NCBI GenBank assembly: GCA_048885525.1
Contig: JBHLLP010000014.1
Location: forward strand, 17,719 to 81,718
DNA from: Candidatus Hermodarchaeota archaeon
GTDB lineage: Archaea > Asgardarchaeota > Lokiarchaeia > Sigyniarchaeales > SOKP01
Direction: 5' to 3'
DNA: 64,000 bases
Positions 6,144-14,031 of this stretch are shown here, piece after piece. The position numbers and the translations under genes are program-made. The notes below the pieces were generated by a model. The model saw only the letters and a list, made by a program, of their open reading frames with translations. It was not told the DNA's origin and searched no databases. Each line of letters opens with the position of its first letter. Within the stretch, counting starts at the first letter, position 1.

Positions 6144-7337
6144 ATGATTGCTAAATTCAATGTAAATAAATATTATGCAGGTCCAAAAGCCTTATTTGAT
6201 CCAAATTATATCCCACCGCATCTTTTATATAGAAAAAAAGAAGAAGATTCTCTCTATTCAATTTTAAATGATTCATTATTTGATGAATTTAATCTCAATA
6301 TACTTTATCAAGGAATTAATGGTATTGGAAAGAAAGTAATAGTTAATAAAGTATTAAATGATCTTTTTAAACAAAATAGAGAATTTATTAAAATTAATAA
6401 AATTTGTGTGGATTGCAAGGAAAAACATCCTGAAGAAATAATTTTTTCATTACTAAGTAAAATAATTAGGTTATCAAATCTCAATTTCGATTTTCAACCA
6501 CTATTAAATTCAGAGATATCCCACTTATGGAATACGTTTAAATTTATTTGTAATAGGGACAATTCACATTTATTTTTTATATTTAATAACATCGAGTATT
6601 TACCACCGTATATTTTCAATAAATTTATACAATTTAGCAGGGAATCAAAAATAACTTTAATATCTACAATAAATAAAATTATACAACCTGGAACAATGGA
6701 GTTATTTTCTGAGTTTGATTTAAAAAAGAAGCTGAATTTCTATACTTATAGAGAGCTTTATTTTATTTTAAAACAGAGAGTATTATTGAGTTTTTCCCGT
6801 GAAATAGATAAAAACCTCATTAGATACATTACAGATTTGATCTGTGAGCAATATGTCCCTGTTCCGGGAAAAGGAATTCAAATACTTCGAGATTTATATC
6901 CAATATTAAAAAATCAACATTCTTTAAAAGATTTTGAAGTTTTGGAAATTTTTCAAAATGAATTTGATACATTTCACATTTCTGATGAATTCAGTATGAT
7001 AAATTATCTTTCTGAAGAAGATATATTAACAATAATATTTTTAGATAATCTTTCGAATTATTTTACTTCTAAAAATAAGTTTTATATCTCTTTAAAAGAA
7101 TTAAACGAATTATATAACATTTCATGTGAAACTTTAGAGTTTCAAAAATCTCTTAATGAATTTCGCGAATTAACTGAAGAAATGTTGAACATTGGAGTTT
7201 TAAAACCCTCAAAAAGAACATTTCACAAGAAAAGTAATAATGAGATTTTCAGTGGAGTAAATAATGATTACTTCTTCATATTGATTAATCCTAAAAAAAT
7301 AAAGGTAATTATTGATGCAATTTTTAACCAGCGTTAA
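6144..7337 (+). CDS. Cdc6/Orc1-like AAA+ protein with degenerate ATPase motifs
   Basis: FDPNYIPPHLLYRKKE N-terminal Cdc6 motif, VDC, FYTYRELYFILKQR, C-terminal WH-like region; Walker A GINGIGKK, Walker B FIFNNIE. Confidence 0.75.
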   Translation: MIAKFNVNKYYAGPKALFDPNYIPPHLLYRKKEEDSLYSILNDSLFDEFNLNILYQGINGIGKKVIVNKVLNDLFKQNREFIKINKICVDCKEKHPEEIIFSLLSKIIRLSNLNFDFQPLLNSEISHLWNTFKFICNRDNSHLFFIFNNIEYLPPYIFNKFIQFSRESKITLISTINKIIQPGTMELFSEFDLKKKLNFYTYRELYFILKQRVLLSFSREIDKNLIRYITDLICEQYVPVPGKGIQILRDLYPILKNQHSLKDFEVLEIFQNEFDTFHISDEFSMINYLSEEDILTIIFLDNLSNYFTSKNKFYISLKELNELYNISCETLEFQKSLNEFRELTEEMLNIGVLKPSKRTFHKKSNNEIFSGVNNDYFFILINPKKIKVIIDAIFNQR

Positions 7338-7507: not shown

Positions 7508-10500
7508 TTGACTTATATTAAAAAAATTTCTATGAGTGGTTTCAAATCTTTTGGAGATCGAACTGTAACTATCAGACTTTCAAGTGGATTCACATGTATC
7601 GTGGGACCGAATGGGGCTGGTAAATCTAATATAATAGATGCTTTATGTTTCTCGCTTGGTAGGTTAAGCAAAAAAACTATGAGAGCAAAAAGTTTAGAGG
7701 ATCTTATCTTTGCTGGTTCACGAGGGAAAAATCCTTCTCAAAGAGCTTCAGTTACATTATTTTTTGATAATTCTGATAATGTTTTTCCTGGAGGAACAGA
7801 TGATTTTCAGATTACTCGTGTTATAAAAAGAGGCGGAGGAGGCGGATATAAAATGAATGGAAAGAAAGTCACCCGCCAGCAAATACTTAACGCTTTAGCA
7901 GCAGCAAATATTGATCCTGATGGTAGTAATCAATTTGTATTACAAGGAAAGATTGTTGAATTAACACATATGAATCCTGAAGATCGCAGGAGGTTCATTG
8001 AGGAGTTAATAGGACTTCAAAAATATGATGAAATGAAGGATGCTACTTTAAAGGAATTAGAAAAAGCAGAAAGAGATTTAGGACAGTTTGAAGCGATCTT
8101 TAAAGAAGTATCTGCTCAACTGAAAAAGGTTGAAAAAGAAAAAAATGACGCTTTAGCTTGGAAAGAATTAGATGATCAAATAAATTATCTAAACTCGCAG
8201 TTAATAGCTCTAAAGATTTCAAAATTACGAGAAGAAGAAGAAGAACTAGAAAAAAAAATCGAAATATCTTCAAAAATCGTTGAAGAATTGCAAGAAAAAA
8301 TAAATCGTCAAGAAGATGTCTTAAAACAAGAATCTCTCGTTATGGATAATATCCAAAAAACTATTACTGATAAAGAAAAAGAAAGAGAAGAAATAACTGA
8401 AAATATAACTCAAATTAAAACACAAATATCTTCAAGTCAAACCACATTAAATCTGGATAATAAATCAATCGATAAACTAACAAAAGAAATTGAATCTCTA
8501 GAAAGTCAACAAATGAAACTTGAAGATGAGCAAACTTTTGATTCATTAATAGAAAGTGTGTTAAATGTAATTTTAGAATATGAGAATTATATTGAAGAAG
8601 CTAAAAAGGAAATTGAAAAAAGACAACAAAACCAAGCTGAATTAGACCTTAAAATAAAAAATAATGAAGATGAAAAATCTATTTTTAAAGCAGAAATATC
8701 CAAGATACAACAAAATGTTTCTTCTAATAATGCTCAAATTAAGATGCTTAGAGGAACTATTAAAAAAAATGAAGAAAAAAAGGAAAAATTAGAAATTGAA
8801 TTACAGAGATTGAAAAAAGATGCTGAAAGCATCGATGAGGCCATTGAAGCGACTAAACAAGCAGAATCTGAAATAAGGAATAAAATTAACGATTTAAATA
8901 GTAAAATTTCTAAAGAAAATCAAAATCAAAAAGATCTAGAGAATAATATTAACACTCTCCAAATAGAGAAAAACCAACTAAATTCTAAATCAGCAAATTT
9001 TCAAGCTACTTTATCGTCTTTAAGTACAGAAATTAAAATGAATCAAGGAAACATACAAGAATTAGATGAAAAGAAAAATCTTATAAAGAAAAAGATTACT
9101 GAATTAAGTCAAGGTCAGGACTCTGAAAAAGCAGTGAAAGAATTATTGAGTCAAAATGAAACCATAAACAAAGAATTGAGTGAATTAAGAACAAAATTAA
9201 AGCAAGAAAATTCAGTATATAGAAAAAATGAACAAGATCTAGAACTAATTAAAATGAAAAAATATTCTTGCGAATCAGAAATCAATGATAATAATGCAAA
9301 GATTGATAATATTAATACAGAACTAAAAATTCTTACAAAAGAATTAACAAATTTGGATCGAGAGAAGAATAAATTAGAAATACTAGCAGATACATCAAAT
9401 AAAAGTCTTACAAATATTACTGAGTCAACTGAAAAATTATTAATTAAGAAGGAGAATGTACAAAGACGTTTAGAAGATCTTTCCCAACAAAAAGAAAATT
9501 TGACAAAAAAAATTGAATCTTCTGAGGAAGAATACGAGAAGGATACAAAAGATGTTACGGGAATTCTCCAAATTTTAAATATGCTTACCCAGAATATTAA
9601 TATCTCAGTTGAATCTATTAAAAGTAATATACAACAATCAAACGCAGAGGCAATTGAATCATCCGCAGAAGATTTTAAAAAATTCATTTTAGATATCATA
9701 GATATTATGAAAACAGTTGAGGATATTGGCGTTGATGAGGAAAAACATGCTGAAATGACAGAAATGATTAACTCTATAATGCAAACTTTAAAAATGTTTA
9801 CAGATAATGCTGATGAAACCATTAATCAATTAATCGATAGAGTAAAAGAATCAGCAGACATTGAAGTACAAAGTTCAACCGCTACATTTGATAGTTTTGT
9901 TCAAGACTTAATGGAAATTCTTGAAAATGTATATCTTTCGTTAAGAAAGCTAACTATGTCTAAAAGTCAGGAACTATACAAACAATTGGAAGAAATATCG
10001 GAGACTATCAAATCCCAAACAGACGATTTTAACCAAAATGAGAAACAATTAACTGAAAGTAATATCCAAGAAAAACACTTATCAGAAAACCTTTCAACTT
10101 ATGAAAAAAGACTTAATGAAATTAATAAAAGAAATACTGAGATAAATGAAAGAATTAAAAAAGGAGAACAAGAAATTAAGGAAAGGGAGAAAATAATTAA
10201 TACCAGACAATCAGAAACTAGTAACTTTGATATCGAAATTGAAAAACTAAAAAAACTTAAAGACACATATTGGGACAATCTCTCTACAATTCAAGAAGAT
10301 ATTGATAAAAAGCAAAACGAATTAGAAAATCTGAGAGAAAAATTACAGGAATTGCACGGAATTCAAAATTTATTTGAGAATATTGCTGAAATTGATGATA
10401 ATGTAGAAAAATTAAATAAAATTATTTTGGAAAAGAAAAATTTAATCGTAAATACAGAAGAAAATATTAAAAAAATTCAAGAAGAACAAAATTCATTACA

Positions 10501-11959
10501 AAAAAATATTGATGAACTTGTTCTAAAAAAAGAGAACTACTGGGAAATAACAGAGAATTTACGAAAACAGATAGATGATGAGAACAAAACCTTGGAAGAT
10601 ACTATGGATCGCTTAAGAGCGCTTGAAAACGTAATGAGGATAATTGATTCTATTGAAGATATTAAAAAAGAAAATAATGATGCTAAAAATAATGTTCAAA
10701 CTTGTTTAAATGAAATAGAAGGATTGAAAACCCAGATTGAAGAAATCCAAAAAAATGTGAATAAAAAACAAGAAGTAATAGATTCTTTAAGAATTCAGAA
10801 AACAGAAGAGTTAGAATCACAAAAGGTAGCCCAAAAGAATTTAAACAAATTGAATAAAGATTTGCAGAAATCTCAAGGGAAGTTGAATGAGTTAAATAAA
10901 AATAAAGAAAGAGAACAAAAAATTATTGGGCTGCATCAAGAGATAAAAGATATTGAAGAACAGATTGAATTAATAACAAAAGAATTAAGCAATTTTAAAG
11001 AAAAATTGGATAGTGAAAATGAAAAGAAGAATGAAAAACAAAAAGAGATTGATAAGTTTATACAAGAAAAAGATGAATCATGGAAAAAACAAAAACAATA
11101 TCAGAAAGTTATAACTGACTTAAAATCAGATTTATCTATGGAGAATTCTAAAATCAACAATTTTGAATCAAAAAAAATAATGTGTACTGATCAAATTGAA
11201 ACTTTGTTTGAGCGTTCTAAAGAATATGGGTCATTACCTCCTATAAATGAAGGGCTTTCAGAAGCAGAATTACAGGCAGATATAGTAGAAAAAACACAGA
11301 AGAAAAAAACCCTAGAACCTGTGAATTTAAAAGCAATTGAACAATATGATACTGTAAAAGAAAGATTTGATGAGATAGATATGAGACGGCAAACAATACA
11401 AAGAGAAAGAAAATCAATTTTAGATGCTATTGATAAGATTGAACTAGAAAAAACAAGAACATTCATGAAAGCATATCATGAGATTAATAGAGAGTTTAGT
11501 AGAATTTTTCAAAAACTTAGTCCTGGTGGTTCAGCGAAAATGATTTTAGATAGACCAGATAAGCCATTCGAAGGGGGTATTAGTATAGAAGCAAGACCAA
11601 GAGGTAAAAAAATTAGCTCATTAGAAATATTAAGTGGCGGTGAAAAAACATTAGTAGCATTATCTTTCATATTTGCTGTTCAAGAATTTTATCCTGCTCC
11701 ATTTTATGTAATGGACGAAATTGATGCTGCTTTAGATGGTCCAAATGTACATCGCGTTTCCATGGTTATAAAAGAATTTGCTTCACAAGCTCAATTTATG
11801 GTGATTAGCCACCGTGAGGAAAATATAGTAAATGCAGATAGAATTTATGGAGTATCAATGCAACAAAGTGGAATAACTGATATTTTTAGCGTTGATTTAG
11901 AAGAAGAGGCAAAAAGAATTCTTGAAATTGAAGATGTCGAACCTACAATAACAGAATAA
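7508..11959 (+). CDS. smc: SMC chromosome segregation ATPase, elongated, with atypical central apex
   Basis: GFKSF, Walker A GPNGAGKSN, Q-loop VLQG, signature LSGGEK, Walker B/D-loop VMDEIDAALD, H-loop ISH; long coiled coils; GGAG SD before TTG. Confidence 0.95.
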   Translation: MTYIKKISMSGFKSFGDRTVTIRLSSGFTCIVGPNGAGKSNIIDALCFSLGRLSKKTMRAKSLEDLIFAGSRGKNPSQRASVTLFFDNSDNVFPGGTDDFQITRVIKRGGGGGYKMNGKKVTRQQILNALAAANIDPDGSNQFVLQGKIVELTHMNPEDRRRFIEELIGLQKYDEMKDATLKELEKAERDLGQFEAIFKEVSAQLKKVEKEKNDALAWKELDDQINYLNSQLIALKISKLREEEEELEKKIEISSKIVEELQEKINRQEDVLKQESLVMDNIQKTITDKEKEREEITENITQIKTQISSSQTTLNLDNKSIDKLTKEIESLESQQMKLEDEQTFDSLIESVLNVILEYENYIEEAKKEIEKRQQNQAELDLKIKNNEDEKSIFKAEISKIQQNVSSNNAQIKMLRGTIKKNEEKKEKLEIELQRLKKDAESIDEAIEATKQAESEIRNKINDLNSKISKENQNQKDLENNINTLQIEKNQLNSKSANFQATLSSLSTEIKMNQGNIQELDEKKNLIKKKITELSQGQDSEKAVKELLSQNETINKELSELRTKLKQENSVYRKNEQDLELIKMKKYSCESEINDNNAKIDNINTELKILTKELTNLDREKNKLEILADTSNKSLTNITESTEKLLIKKENVQRRLEDLSQQKENLTKKIESSEEEYEKDTKDVTGILQILNMLTQNINISVESIKSNIQQSNAEAIESSAEDFKKFILDIIDIMKTVEDIGVDEEKHAEMTEMINSIMQTLKMFTDNADETINQLIDRVKESADIEVQSSTATFDSFVQDLMEILENVYLSLRKLTMSKSQELYKQLEEISETIKSQTDDFNQNEKQLTESNIQEKHLSENLSTYEKRLNEINKRNTEINERIKKGEQEIKEREKIINTRQSETSNFDIEIEKLKKLKDTYWDNLSTIQEDIDKKQNELENLREKLQELHGIQNLFENIAEIDDNVEKLNKIILEKKNLIVNTEENIKKIQEEQNSLQKNIDELVLKKENYWEITENLRKQIDDENKTLEDTMDRLRALENVMRIIDSIEDIKKENNDAKNNVQTCLNEIEGLKTQIEEIQKNVNKKQEVIDSLRIQKTEELESQKVAQKNLNKLNKDLQKSQGKLNELNKNKEREQKIIGLHQEIKDIEEQIELITKELSNFKEKLDSENEKKNEKQKEIDKFIQEKDESWKKQKQYQKVITDLKSDLSMENSKINNFESKKIMCTDQIETLFERSKEYGSLPPINEGLSEAELQADIVEKTQKKKTLEPVNLKAIEQYDTVKERFDEIDMRRQTIQRERKSILDAIDKIELEKTRTFMKAYHEINREFSRIFQKLSPGGSAKMILDRPDKPFEGGISIEARPRGKKISSLEILSGGEKTLVALSFIFAVQEFYPAPFYVMDEIDAALDGPNVHRVSMVIKEFASQAQFMVISHREENIVNADRIYGVSMQQSGITDIFSVDLEEEAKRILEIEDVEPTITE
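9551..9960 (+). repeat. tandem ~71-aa protein repeat at the SMC apex
   Basis: aa682 DVTGILQILNMLTQN..QSNAEAIESSAEDFKKFILDIIDIMKTV aligns without gaps to aa753 MINSIMQTLKMFTDN..ESADIEVQSSTATFDSFVQDLMEILENV. Confidence 0.75.
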
Positions 11960-11984: not shown

Positions 11985-12998
11985 ATGATTTCAAAAAATG
12001 GAGAAGACACGGTAAAAAAATATAATTTTAATGAATGGACTGTAAAACTCTTAAAGGAATTTGCATCAAAAAATAATATTAAAATTCCAACTAAGGCAAA
12101 AAAAAGAGATATTGTTGAATTGCTTGAAAACGTTACATCTCATCCCGACTTTATCGATCGATCTCAAGAAGAACAAACAGAAGAACCTGAAATAGAATTA
12201 GTTGCTGAGTTTGATGAAGAAGATGAGGATCTTGCATTATTGCGAAAAGAAAAAACTGAATTGAAATTTTGGCAAAAACCACCATTTTCAAGTCTTTTAG
12301 ATACTGAATTAGCAAAAGAATCCGAAATTGCTTTTTACGATTTGTCAAAATTAGTAGATAGCTTTTTTGATAATATGCTTCATGAAGATTTAATTAACTA
12401 TAAAATTTCTGGAATAGCACTTAAAACATCTGCATCTCTACATCATTACAAAATCTCAAGTATAATTAAAGAAGAGGAACAAATTCAACGAAGAGAAGAA
12501 TTAGAAAAATTCAGACAAAGCCATTCTAGATCAATTCCAAAAGCTTTGCCTCAGCCAATTTCCCCTAAAATGCAAATTGCTACTAAGGATGAATTATTTG
12601 ATGCTATGAGATCAGCGATTATTGAAGTAATGCAAAATAAAGAAAAGTTAAAAAGAAGGAGAATGCGAAGAGAAGAACTTAAAGAACAAAGGATCCAAAT
12701 GAGATCCAAAGCGCAATTACCAAAAGAACTCTTAAAACATATTAGTGGTAAAGAACAGACTGTTGAAGAATTGCATGAATCATGGTATAATCGAATAAAA
12801 GCTACAATCAATTTAAACAATAAACAAACAAGTATTTTTGATTTAATGAATATTATTAAAAACGAAGAGGAAAGTGGTATAGGTCGTAAATTTTCGTTAG
12901 TACGTATGTTTTTAGCTTTACTATTCTTATCTACTGGAAATAAATTAAATTTATCTCAAGAGGAAGATTTTCAAGATATTTTAGTTGATACTAGTTAA
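11985..12998 (+). CDS. scpA: ScpA kleisin with an extra N-terminal HEH/SAP-like domain
   Basis: Follows smc; DLSKLVDSF..SGIALKTSA..YK N-domain; C-terminal VRMFLALLFL...LSQEEDFQDI winged helix. Confidence 0.85.
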   Translation: MISKNGEDTVKKYNFNEWTVKLLKEFASKNNIKIPTKAKKRDIVELLENVTSHPDFIDRSQEEQTEEPEIELVAEFDEEDEDLALLRKEKTELKFWQKPPFSSLLDTELAKESEIAFYDLSKLVDSFFDNMLHEDLINYKISGIALKTSASLHHYKISSIIKEEEQIQRREELEKFRQSHSRSIPKALPQPISPKMQIATKDELFDAMRSAIIEVMQNKEKLKRRRMRREELKEQRIQMRSKAQLPKELLKHISGKEQTVEELHESWYNRIKATINLNNKQTSIFDLMNIIKNEEESGIGRKFSLVRMFLALLFLSTGNKLNLSQEEDFQDILVDTS

Positions 12999-13038: not shown

Positions 13039-14031
13039 TTGGAAGAAAATCCAGATAAAGAAAATAATGAGGAAATAGAAGAAAATCCTGACAATATTTT
13101 TGATGAAGAAGAAAATGAACTTCTTGATGAAGAAATTAAAGATGTGGAAACATTAACTGAAATAGAATCTAAAGAAGTAGATTTAGATGATTCAATGAAA
13201 GAAATTGAAGGTGAATTCATTGAACAACTAGAAACAAAATCAGAAGATATTGAAAAACTTGAATTAGTTGAAGAATTCGATCAAGAATCAGAAGCAATCC
13301 TAATTGAAGAATCTATTGATGTGCAAAGGCTTGAAGATGCAAACAATATAATTAAAAATACGTCAGAAAGTACGATTATCCATGAAAAAGCTTTAGAACT
13401 TGATGAAAAAGCTCTTCATCGAAATTTTATTGAGGCAGCCCTCTATGCTGCTGGAGGACCTTTAACAATAGAAGAGTTATCCAATAAATTAGAATTTCCT
13501 AAAAAGGAAGTAGAAACTCTAGTAAATGAATTAGCTTTTGATTATTTAGAGCGTACTACATCACTAATTATTGCGCAAATTGGAGATAGATATCAAATGC
13601 AGATTAGACCTGAATACACTGAAAAAGTTTCAAAATTTGCGAAAGGAGGGGCAATAGCAGAGAGGCATTTAAGAACTTTGACTATTATCGCTTTAAAGCA
13701 ACCAATCTTAAAATCAATGGTTATAAAATTAAGAGGTACTGGAGCATATGAACATATAAAGTACCTTTTAGATAATGAATTTATAAACGCTGTAAAAAAA
13801 GGTAGATCTCACGAATTAACTACTTCAGATAAGTATGCAGAAATGTTTGGATTGCCAAAAGATATAAGATTGATGAAACAAGCTATGATCAATCAATTAG
13901 GAATTGGAGAAGGAGGAGAAATTAAGGTTTCAGGTGAAACCGAAGAAGTGGAAAAAGTCGAAGATTCAATTGAAATCGAAGAAGAAAATCAAGTTGAACC
14001 TATGAATGAAAATGATGAGGTAGAAGAATAA
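13039..14031 (+). CDS. scpB: ScpB (KITE) subunit with long acidic N-terminal extension
   Basis: IEAALYAAGGPL, LRTLTIIALKQPI..IKLRG..AYEHIKYL, TSDKYAEMFGL. Confidence 0.92.
   Translation: MEENPDKENNEEIEENPDNIFDEEENELLDEEIKDVETLTEIESKEVDLDDSMKEIEGEFIEQLETKSEDIEKLELVEEFDQESEAILIEESIDVQRLEDANNIIKNTSESTIIHEKALELDEKALHRNFIEAALYAAGGPLTIEELSNKLEFPKKEVETLVNELAFDYLERTTSLIIAQIGDRYQMQIRPEYTEKVSKFAKGGAIAERHLRTLTIIALKQPILKSMVIKLRGTGAYEHIKYLLDNEFINAVKKGRSHELTTSDKYAEMFGLPKDIRLMKQAMINQLGIGEGGEIKVSGETEEVEKVEDSIEIEEENQVEPMNENDEVEE

What the first reader, a model, noticed from the sequence alone, without database searches (positions are those of the whole stretch)
9480..10020. SMC without a canonical hinge: apex replaced by a pseudo-symmetric all-helical duplication
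Seen: canonical Smc heads in an smc-scpA-scpB operon. The midpoint (aa ~680-820) has none of the alpha/beta hinge motifs (GV.G.v, ALG, GR.TFLPL, GxxxGG) and no Rad50 CxxC zinc hook. Instead there are two ~71-aa amphipathic helical repeats (aa 682 and 753) whose junction sits at the centre of the antiparallel coil. Known: Smc-ScpAB normally dimerises through the globular hinge. Inference: a condensin-like complex using a different dimerisation module, possibly a helical bundle or domain swap, which would be an unusual SMC class in an Asgard lineage.
Basis: partly seen in the sequence, partly recalled or inferred. Interest (0 to 1): 0.85.

Follow-up and report, generated by a model that had tools for sequence, protein, structure and literature searches.

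The report
Hinge-less, long-armed Asgard SMC paralogue
This Loki-type Asgard archaeon's only condensin-type SMC motor has normal ATPase heads and partner genes, but the globular hinge is replaced by an acidic, duplicated all-helical tip on arms about 1.7 times the usual length, which gives a natural test of what the hinge is for.

Summary
The gene at 7508-11959 encodes a 1483-aa Smc with intact heads, followed by a kleisin-like gene and scpB. No SMC_hinge match was found even at E<=10, and there is no CxxC. AlphaFold2 models the midpoint as one continuous helical hairpin with its turn at aa 742-747, the exact middle of the protein. The two 71-aa-offset repeats are real (profile-profile E 1e-11; arm controls E>=0.003).

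It is not an artefact. The same architecture occurs in over 100 assemblies, including closed genomes. A profile of the tip matched 130 of 153 sampled genomes of the window's order, and outside it only two probably mis-binned genomes.

New here:
- It is a paralogue. Several genera, including closed Ca. Harpocratesius repetitus, also keep a canonical 1200-aa hinge-bearing Smc with its own ScpB. The window's genus has lost that copy.
- The tip is acidic (net -19) where canonical hinges are basic (+8 to +11), and it is hydrophobic-rich.
- The tip recurs at the N-terminus of headless proteins.

How two copies join at the tip remains inferred; the one complex prediction gave no verdict. This scan had already noted the same protein in other genomes of the order. 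I found no paper reporting the missing hinge.

The parts
7508..11959 (+). hinge-less SMC gene, 1483 aa (TTG start as listed)
   Evidence: ORF list and translation; SMC_N, TIGR02168 and TIGR02169 matches
7508..8020 (+). N-terminal half of the ATPase head (about aa 1-170; Walker A, Q-loop)
   Evidence: SMC_N covers aa 3-138; last Pro before the arm is at aa 157; closest solved relative is Pyrococcus Smc head 5xei, 205 bits
8021..9490 (+). N-terminal strand of the coiled-coil arm (about aa 172-661)
   Evidence: No Pro, 26% large hydrophobics and 38% charged residues; aa 601-661 modelled as helix at pLDDT 91-92
9491..10021 (+). apex module (aa 662-838): acidic all-helical hairpin standing where the hinge would be
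   Evidence: AlphaFold2 models; no PF06470 match; net charge -19; profile A3 matches genomes of one order
9530..9718 (+). repeat 1 (aa 675-737)
   Evidence: BLASTP E 6e-7; hhalign E 1.1e-11
9731..9748 (+). tip loop (aa 742-747), the only helix break; length varies among homologues
   Evidence: DSSP of models; indels in the alignment
9743..9931 (+). repeat 2 (aa 746-808)
10022..11302 (+). C-terminal strand of the coiled-coil arm (about aa 839-1265)
   Evidence: Composition; aa 839-899 modelled as helix at pLDDT about 90
11303..11959 (+). C-terminal half of the ATPase head (signature motif, Walker B, H-loop)
   Evidence: Translation; TIGR02169 best stretch aa 990-1464; SMC_N second half found at this place in the genome
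11985..12998 (+). kleisin-like gene (ScpA-like, 337 aa) with an N-terminal HeH/SAP-like motif
   Evidence: Weak Pfam SMC_ScpA and Rad21_Rec8 C-terminal hits; the profile's top six PDB hits are all kleisins; same position in the operon in other genomes
13039..14031 (+). scpB (kite, 330 aa) with a 130-aa very acidic N-terminal extension
   Evidence: PF04079 2e-32; TIGR00281 above cut-off; the only ScpB found in this genome; extension net charge -38

Best explanation
Shown: the gene encodes an Smc-type ABC ATPase of archaeal type with all ATPase motifs present. It lies in an operon with its own kleisin-like protein and ScpB kite. The globular alpha/beta hinge is absent. Two very long arm strands (about 490 and 430 residues, plus the tip) run into a roughly 175-residue acidic helical hairpin built from a tandem duplication of a ~71-residue unit. 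This design is shared across the window's order of Asgard archaea (probably GTDB o__CR-4, Lokiarchaeia). It is a paralogue of the canonical hinge-bearing Smc. In the window's genus it is the only condensin-type Smc found, beside a divergent hinge-bearing SMC that is probably SMC5/6-related.

Inferred: the complex works like Smc-ScpAB, with ATP-driven head engagement and the kleisin bridging the neck of one Smc and the cap of the other. Closure at the far end is provided by tip-to-tip association of two hairpins. The hydrophobic-rich tips most likely pack into a four-helix bundle. Because the two repeats pack antiparallel in the model, the hairpin has a pseudo-dyad near aa 709/780. Because the tip is strongly acidic where canonical hinges are basic, DNA binding by the apex has probably been given up or moved elsewhere. 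My odds: about 0.9 that this is a real hinge-less Smc class, and about 0.5 that the tip homodimerises.
For: Heads and partners. No hinge: no PF06470 match at E<=10, whereas the same model finds the genome's other SMC (27.7 bits) and scores about 111 bits on the canonical Smc of a related genome. Two AlphaFold2 models are all-helical (mean pLDDT 84.4 and 78.6). There is no Pro for about 1080 residues and no CxxC. Duplication. Real and lineage-wide: more than 120 protein clusters of 1473-1487 aa; profile A3 matches f1 113/134, f2 14/14, f32 1/1 and f33 2/4 genomes, all of one order. Paralogy: Ca. Harpocratesius repetitus (closed genome) and genomes G040 and G144 each carry both the hinge-less SMC with a kleisin-like gene and scpB, and a 1195-1206-aa hinge-bearing Smc followed by a short ScpB. 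The window genome has one ScpB and no trace of a canonical hinge. Tip as a discrete interaction module: 38-40% large hydrophobics against 26-27% in the arms, and about half the charged residues; within family f1 its conservation is comparable to that of the heads; the same two-repeat module sits at the N-terminus of headless ~1040-aa proteins (hhalign E 7e-15). Acidic tip: net -19 here and mean -18.4 over 114 rows, against +8 to +11 for canonical Loki hinges. Precedent that a hinge can be replaced: B. subtilis Smc with the Pyrococcus Rad50 zinc hook in place of the hinge is described as a functional chimera (PMC5344682).
Against: No direct evidence for tip-tip binding. The monomer models show only a two-helix hairpin, with lower confidence at the tip (pLDDT 76-82) than in the arms (91-92). 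In a balanced set of nine divergent members, the tip is only slightly better conserved than the arms (identity 0.44-0.54 against 0.39-0.50), and the conserved positions follow an ordinary a/d-like spacing. The kleisin assignment rests on weak matches. No expression or protein data were obtained. The geometry of any dimer (side-by-side rod or antiparallel overlap) is unknown.
Confidence: 0.7

Rival explanations
1. The tip is not a homodimerisation device. The two SMC chains are held together only by head engagement and the kleisin. The acidic tip is free, or it docks on another partner: a basic chromatin protein, or (in the family of Ca. Harpocratesius) the headless proteins that carry the same module and a Lys-rich tail.
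For: Monomer models show a self-sufficient hairpin. The tip has net charge -19. The module occurs in headless ~1040-aa proteins with Lys-rich C-termini in family f2.
Against: From general knowledge of the superfamily, the characterised SMC-like proteins with long arms (Smc, MukB, Rad50/SbcC, RecN) join at the apex. The headless module proteins were not found in the window's own family with these queries, so they cannot be a general partner. The hydrophobic enrichment at the tip is more than a two-helix coil needs.
Confidence: 0.22
2. It is not a condensin-type Smc but an SMC-like repair or defence ATPase (Rad50/SbcC, RecN or Wadjet/MukB-like) that lacks a hinge by nature.
For: Hinge-less helical apices are the rule in Rad50, SbcC and RecN. 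Weak NCBIfam matches to Rad50 models (about 100 bits) exist.
Against: TIGR02168/02169 score 609 bits, against at most 108 bits for Rad50 models (cut-offs 700-1087) and 33 bits for RecN. The nearest solved heads are Pyrococcus Smc (205 bits), then eukaryotic Smc2. There is no CxxC. The operon partners are a kleisin-like protein and ScpB. None of the three neighbouring genes scanned matched a nuclease family.
Confidence: 0.04
3. A canonical hinge is present but too divergent to detect, or the gene is a misassembled or decaying copy.
For: The genome's other SMC has a hinge that scores only 27.7 bits, so weak hinges do exist in this lineage.
Against: Models are all-helical with no strand. There is no Pro, and Gly occurs only at aa 685 and 741 in the apex module. 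Length (1473-1497 aa) and synteny are the same in more than 100 assemblies, including closed genomes. The frame is open, the head motifs are intact, and within family f1 sequence conservation is high.
Confidence: 0.02

Closest known systems
Prokaryotic condensin Smc-ScpAB (Pyrococcus and B. subtilis; TIGR02169/TIGR02168; PDB 5xei, 4i99, 3zgx)
   Same: ATPase head sequence and motifs, a long antiparallel coiled coil, and kleisin-like plus ScpB kite genes in one operon.
   Different: No PF06470 hinge; instead an acidic duplicated helical hairpin. The protein is 1483 aa against about 1200 aa. The kleisin and the kite both carry N-terminal extensions. It coexists as a paralogue with a canonical Smc in some genera.
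Rad50/SbcC with zinc hook
   Same: SMC-like heads on an antiparallel coiled coil whose apex is helical rather than a globular hinge.
   Different: No CxxC and no zinc site. The heads are Smc-type, not Rad50-type. The partners are a kleisin-like protein and a kite; none of the three neighbouring genes scanned matched a nuclease family.
Engineered B. subtilis Smc(Zh) chimera, with the hinge replaced by the Pyrococcus Rad50 zinc hook (PMC5344682)
   Same: An Smc-ScpAB-type protein whose hinge is replaced by a small helical closure and which is described as functional.
   Different: That one is man-made and uses zinc. This one is natural, metal-free by sequence, and combined with longer arms.
'Hinge-less' SMC cluster of marine Actinobacteria (PMC12153180)
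   Same: SMC heads and coiled coil without a hinge or CxxC, recognised from predicted structures.
   Different: Bacterial, known only from ocean gene catalogues, and reported without genomic partners. No sequence relationship to the tip described here was tested.
RecN (coiled-coil tip dimerisation; from my own knowledge, not tested here)
   Same: An SMC-like ATPase thought to dimerise through a purely helical coiled-coil tip.
   Different: Short arms, no kleisin or kite, a repair function. The RecN model scores only 33 bits here.

Membership tests
Prokaryotic Smc (Smc-ScpAB type) | ABC-type SMC head with Walker A, Q-loop, signature motif, Walker B and H-loop | tested here: met
   Motifs read in the translation; SMC_N 117 bits; Pyrococcus Smc head 205 bits
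Prokaryotic Smc (Smc-ScpAB type) | Score above the curated cut-off of the NCBIfam equivalog models | tested here: inconclusive
   TIGR02168 609.4 bits against cut-off 567.35 (passes); TIGR02169 (archaeal type) 609.7 bits against cut-off 729.4 (fails); the hinge columns are unmatched
Prokaryotic Smc (Smc-ScpAB type) | Globular alpha/beta hinge dimerisation domain (PF06470) | tested here: not met
   No match at E<=10; all-helical models; the same model detects the genome's other SMC and canonical Smc of relatives
Prokaryotic Smc (Smc-ScpAB type) | Long intramolecular antiparallel coiled coil between head and apex | tested here: met
   Modelled for aa 600-900 only. No Pro over aa 158-1243. Matched 97-aa and 90-aa indels on the two strands in the Sigynarchaeota member.
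Prokaryotic Smc (Smc-ScpAB type) | Kleisin (ScpA) and kite (ScpB) partners | tested here: met
   ScpB is above both curated cut-offs. The kleisin is supported only by weak but consistent matches. Physical binding was not tested.
Rad50/SbcC | CxxC zinc hook at the coiled-coil apex | tested here: not met
   Cys only at aa 30, 47, 588, 1066 and 1226; no Rad50_zn_hook match at E<=10
Rad50/SbcC | Rad50-type head above the model cut-off | tested here: not met
   Best Rad50 model 107.7 bits against cut-off 1087
RecN | RecN equivalog score | tested here: not met
   TIGR00634 33 bits against cut-off 407.85
Archaeal SMC5/6-related SMC | Groups with the SMC5/6-related paralogue rather than with Smc | tested here: not met
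   The genome's other SMC (C1, 1156 aa) sits on a very long separate branch. The hinge-less clade groups with the canonical archaeal Smc set. BLASTP between the two gives only 26-32% identity over short stretches.

The most novel reading that the evidence does not exclude
The duplicated acidic helical tip is a new autonomous protein-protein module. It closes the SMC dimer as a pseudo-222-symmetric four-helix bundle. In the family of Ca. Harpocratesius, the same bundle code also lets headless, Lys-rich-tailed proteins carrying the module dock on the SMC apex. That would make it a hinge substitute that doubles as an adaptor socket.
Probability: 0.25. Interest if true: 0.8.

Novelty: new variant of a known kind. 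Interest (0 to 1): 0.66.

Why it matters
The hinge is treated as a defining part of SMC proteins. It joins the two chains, binds DNA, and has been proposed as a DNA entry gate. Here a whole order of Asgard archaea, the closest prokaryotic relatives of eukaryotes, runs a condensin-type Smc-kleisin-kite complex without a hinge. In many genomes, including this one, it is the only such complex found.

Some genera keep both versions, so the two designs can be compared in one cell background. According to other notes of this scan (not checked here), cultured relatives also carry the protein. This makes several questions directly testable:
- Is a globular, DNA-binding hinge needed for loading and loop extrusion?
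- What sets arm length?
- How are new apex closures invented?

It also affects evolutionary studies that use this protein as the Asgard 'condensin/cohesin-related' SMC without noting that its architecture is derived.

Tried and rejected
- **Homodimer prediction** of aa 640-860, two copies: no verdict (score 0.03). It counts neither for nor against binding.
- **Structure searches.** Foldseek against PDB with the 301-aa model and VIA-align wide with the apex-only model returned only generic long helical hairpins (chemoreceptor, YscO, Smc or dynein coiled coils). The best VIA-align Z was about 11, within the noise range for helical models.
- **Sequence and profile searches of the apex against PDB** returned only apolipoproteins and designed helical bundles (E >= 0.0025), that is, composition rather than homology.
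- **ESM Atlas feature search** of aa 665-835: unnamed clusters under 0.9, no lead.
- **Sequencing runs**: no RNA holder listed. Logan contigs of four sediment runs are short pieces. Pieces with no differences cover 9193-9631 and 9741-10887 in two samples, but none of the listed pieces bridges 9632-9740. The case against misassembly therefore rests on the many independent assemblies.
- **AU test on the 102-row tree** did not finish in three runs. A 40-row version was used instead.
- **Bacterial origin of the operon** was considered because its ScpB scores higher on Pfam than the canonical partner's ScpB. It was rejected because the heads are far closer to Pyrococcus Smc (205 bits) than to B. 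subtilis Smc (113 bits).
- **Deep, pre-Asgard origin of the paralogue**, as the rooted quick tree suggests, was considered. It is not upheld, because the root lies on a very long outgroup branch and the AU test does not reject a clade of hinge-less plus Loki canonical Smc (p 0.455).
- **Literature searches** found no report of the missing hinge in these archaea. The library is not complete.

Full report
**What is at the locus.** The window is AT-rich (GC 0.21-0.35). It carries a 4452-nt ORF at 7508-11959 on the plus strand (1483 aa), followed by ORFs at 11985-12998 and 13039-14031. The large protein has every SMC ATPase motif. It matches Pfam SMC_N and scores 609 bits on both NCBIfam Smc equivalogs, against at most 108 bits for Rad50 models and 33 bits for RecN. 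Its N-terminal head is closest to Pyrococcus Smc heads (205 and 172 bits), then eukaryotic Smc2 (about 117-120 bits), then B. subtilis Smc (113 bits). It is therefore an archaeal-type Smc.

The third gene is ScpB, above the curated cut-offs of both Pfam and NCBIfam. The middle gene gives only weak kleisin matches. However, a profile of four orthologues ranks six kleisin chains (ScpA N- and C-terminal domains, and Scc1) at the top of 177,635 PDB sequences. It also occupies the kleisin position in every related operon examined.

**The observation.** The finding's coordinates correspond to aa 658-838.
- Pfam finds neither SMC_hinge nor a zinc hook at E<=10, in the whole protein or in aa 600-900.
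- The five cysteines are scattered, so there is no CxxC. There is not a single proline between aa 157 and 1244.
- The two repeats are real. BLASTP aligns aa 674-737 with 745-808 at an offset of 71 aa (25% identity, E 6e-7).
- Profile-profile comparison of the two halves of a 113-sequence alignment gives 97.4% probability and E 1.1e-11. Five controls with flanking arm segments give E 0.003-0.39.
- AlphaFold2 with that alignment models aa 600-900 as a single helical hairpin whose only break is aa 742-747 (mean pLDDT 84; arms 91-92, tip 76-82).
- A second model of aa 662-838 alone, with more divergent rows added, gives the same hairpin (pLDDT 78.6).
- The break coincides with the midpoint of the protein (aa 741.5).

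**Not an artefact.** A search with the apex found more than 120 protein clusters, nearly all 1473-1487 aa, none with a precomputed hinge domain. They include one from the original Lokiarchaeum marine sediment metagenome. Named contigs include closed chromosomes. A profile of the tip matches 113/134, 14/14, 1/1 and 2/4 sampled genomes of four families of the window's order. Elsewhere in the phylum it matches only two genomes, which look mis-binned: one hit has 84% identity in a 72%-complete bin, and the other is an 8.6-kb contig nearly identical to a genus of the order. A taxonomy table in a preprint supplement suggests the order is GTDB o__CR-4 of Lokiarchaeia; that assignment is an inference.

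A member labelled Sigynarchaeota (MDO8116617.1, 1296 aa) has the same head (63% identity) and the same tip (27% identity, E 5e-26), and no hinge. It lacks aa 492-588 on one arm strand and aa 879-968 on the other. That is one roughly 90-97-aa block on each strand, at roughly opposite positions. This fits an antiparallel arm that changes length in matched modules.

**It is a paralogue.** The hinge model finds one weak match in the window's genome. It lies in a 1156-aa SMC on another contig with divergent heads, probably the SMC5/6-related paralogue described for Asgard archaea.

Across 189 well-completed genomes of the phylum, the window's genus (36 of 38) and the largest sister genus have only that weak match. 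Other genera of the same family, and the neighbouring family, have in addition a strong hinge (110-120 bits) in a 1195-1206-aa Smc.

In Ca. Harpocratesius repetitus (closed, 4.36 Mb) and in two further genomes, both genes were inspected. The hinge-less SMC keeps its own kleisin-like gene and long ScpB. The canonical Smc is followed by a short 196-aa ScpB.

The window's genome, 99.3% complete, has one ScpB. A tblastn search with a canonical Loki Smc matches only the heads of the two SMCs already named. In this organism the hinge-less complex is therefore the only condensin-type machine found.

In a head-domain tree the hinge-less proteins form one group (SH-aLRT 97-100), with short branches, outside the canonical archaeal Smc set. 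The root of that tree is unreliable. An AU test does not reject a tree uniting them with the canonical Smc of their own order (p 0.455). Given the order-restricted distribution, a duplication near the base of the order is the simplest reading, but the date remains open.

**What the tip is like.**
- Within the window's family it is about as conserved as the heads (0.92 and 0.85, against 0.57-0.60 for the flanking arms). In a balanced set of nine divergent members the excess over the arms is small.
- It is enriched in large hydrophobic residues (38-40% against 26-27%) and has about half the charged residues of the arms.
- It is strongly acidic: net -19 over 177 aa here, mean -18.4 over 114 homologues. 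The hinge regions of canonical Smc in the same order are +8 to +11.
- The same two-repeat module stands at the very N-terminus of headless proteins of roughly 930-1290 aa in the Harpocratesius family (hhalign E 7e-15). In the Harpocratesius member it is followed by an unassigned middle part and a Lys-rich tail, with no Pfam match.

The tip is thus a discrete, transferable helical module and not merely the end of a coil. It has no detectable relative among solved structures.

**Mechanism.** What is shown: an ATPase-competent Smc with kite and probable kleisin partners, very long arms, and a helical tip instead of a hinge.

What is inferred: the complex works like Smc-ScpAB, and two hairpin tips associate to close the far end, most simply as a four-helix bundle. 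Because the two repeats are direct in sequence but antiparallel in the hairpin, the tip has a pseudo-dyad near aa 709/780. An antiparallel dimer about the same axis would give four equivalent helices. Alternatively a side-by-side arrangement, like a chemoreceptor or the Rad50 rod, would keep both heads at one end, which suits bridging by a single kleisin better. I cannot choose between these geometries.

The one complex prediction allowed gave no verdict. The engineered B. subtilis Smc with a Rad50 zinc hook in place of the hinge is reported as functional (PMC5344682), so a minimal helical closure is a plausible substitute. The acidic charge argues that hinge-type DNA binding has been lost at the apex.

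The main rival reading is that the tip does not self-associate but is free or docks on a partner. I give it about 0.2.

**Comparison with what is known.** The protein is annotated in databases as SMC or AAA ATPase. A preprint on SMC evolution cites an SMC-kleisin-kite cluster of Prometheoarchaeum as the 'condensin/cohesin-related' complex without remarking on the hinge. I could not verify that this is the same gene. Hinge-less SMCs have been described from marine Actinobacteria (PMC12153180). I found no paper describing the missing hinge, the duplicated tip or the paralogy in Asgard archaea.

Other agents of this scan have noted the same protein on other genomes of the order, and hinge-less SMCs in several bacterial groups. 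Those notes agree with mine but are not independent evidence.

**Verdict.** This is a new variant of a known kind: real, conserved, and of clear interest to SMC biology, with the mode of apex closure still to be shown.

Noticed in passing
L010:7537-11007 (-), = G000 contig C1:71536-75006: Second SMC of the genome: 1156 aa, weak hinge (PF06470 27.7 bits) and divergent heads (TIGR02168 210 bits). It is flanked by 411-aa, 223-aa and 171-aa ORFs; Pfam matched none of them except one sub-threshold hit (ThiI_fer) on the 171-aa ORF. Probably the SMC5/6-related complex described for Asgard archaea.
   Followed up: partly
L025:6997-10122 (-) (Ca. Harpocratesius repetitus, MCF2141576.1); also L036, L037, L038: Headless proteins of roughly 930-1290 aa in family f2 carry the SMC tip module at their N-terminus, sometimes with a weaker second copy. 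In the Harpocratesius member this is followed by an unassigned, probably globular middle and a Lys/Thr-rich tail. Not found in the window's family with these queries.
   Followed up: partly
L139:3225-3644 (-) and L140:3239-3694 (-) (genomes G309 and G308, genus g72): Stand-alone ~240-aa ORFs consist of an SMC hinge domain only (44-49% identical to the canonical Loki Smc hinge), with no head or arm within 3 kb on either side. These genomes also carry the hinge-less SMC. They may be relics of a lost canonical Smc, or free hinge proteins.
   Followed up: partly
window 11985-12270 (ScpA-like aa 1-95); alignment A2: The kleisin N-terminus carries a HeH/SAP-like motif here (Pfam Ish1 E 0.002, HeH E 0.007). 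Orthologues have a Lys-rich tail (Harpocratesius) or a CxxC...HxC zinc-finger-like motif (G040, G144) at the same place: variable, probably nucleic-acid-binding appendages.
   Followed up: partly
window 13039-13428 (ScpB aa 1-130): The ScpB of the hinge-less operon has a 130-aa N-terminal extension of extreme acidity (net -38). It is absent from the 196-aa ScpB that accompanies canonical Smc in related genomes.
   Followed up: partly
window 8981-9271 and 10142-10411 (aa 492-588 and 879-968): These two blocks (97 and 90 aa) are missing from the 1296-aa Sigynarchaeota-labelled member.
   Followed up: partly
window 9151-9822 (-): A 223-aa antisense ORF lies inside the smc gene across the apex. 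It is most likely a by-product of the Lys/Glu/Asn-rich, AT-rich coding strand and not a gene.
   Followed up: no
window 6144-7337 (+): The upstream 397-aa ORF gives only faint AAA-type matches (Sigma54_activat, DUF815; E about 0.05-0.2). Another note of this scan reads it as a degenerate Cdc6/Orc1.
   Followed up: no
genomes of families f7, f16, f22, f24 of the phylum: Several other Asgard families show no hinge match, or only a very weak one, in genomes at least 90% complete. One such family, f24, has a 1203-aa Smc with a 45%-identical head. Hinge divergence or loss may be more widespread in the phylum.
   Followed up: partly
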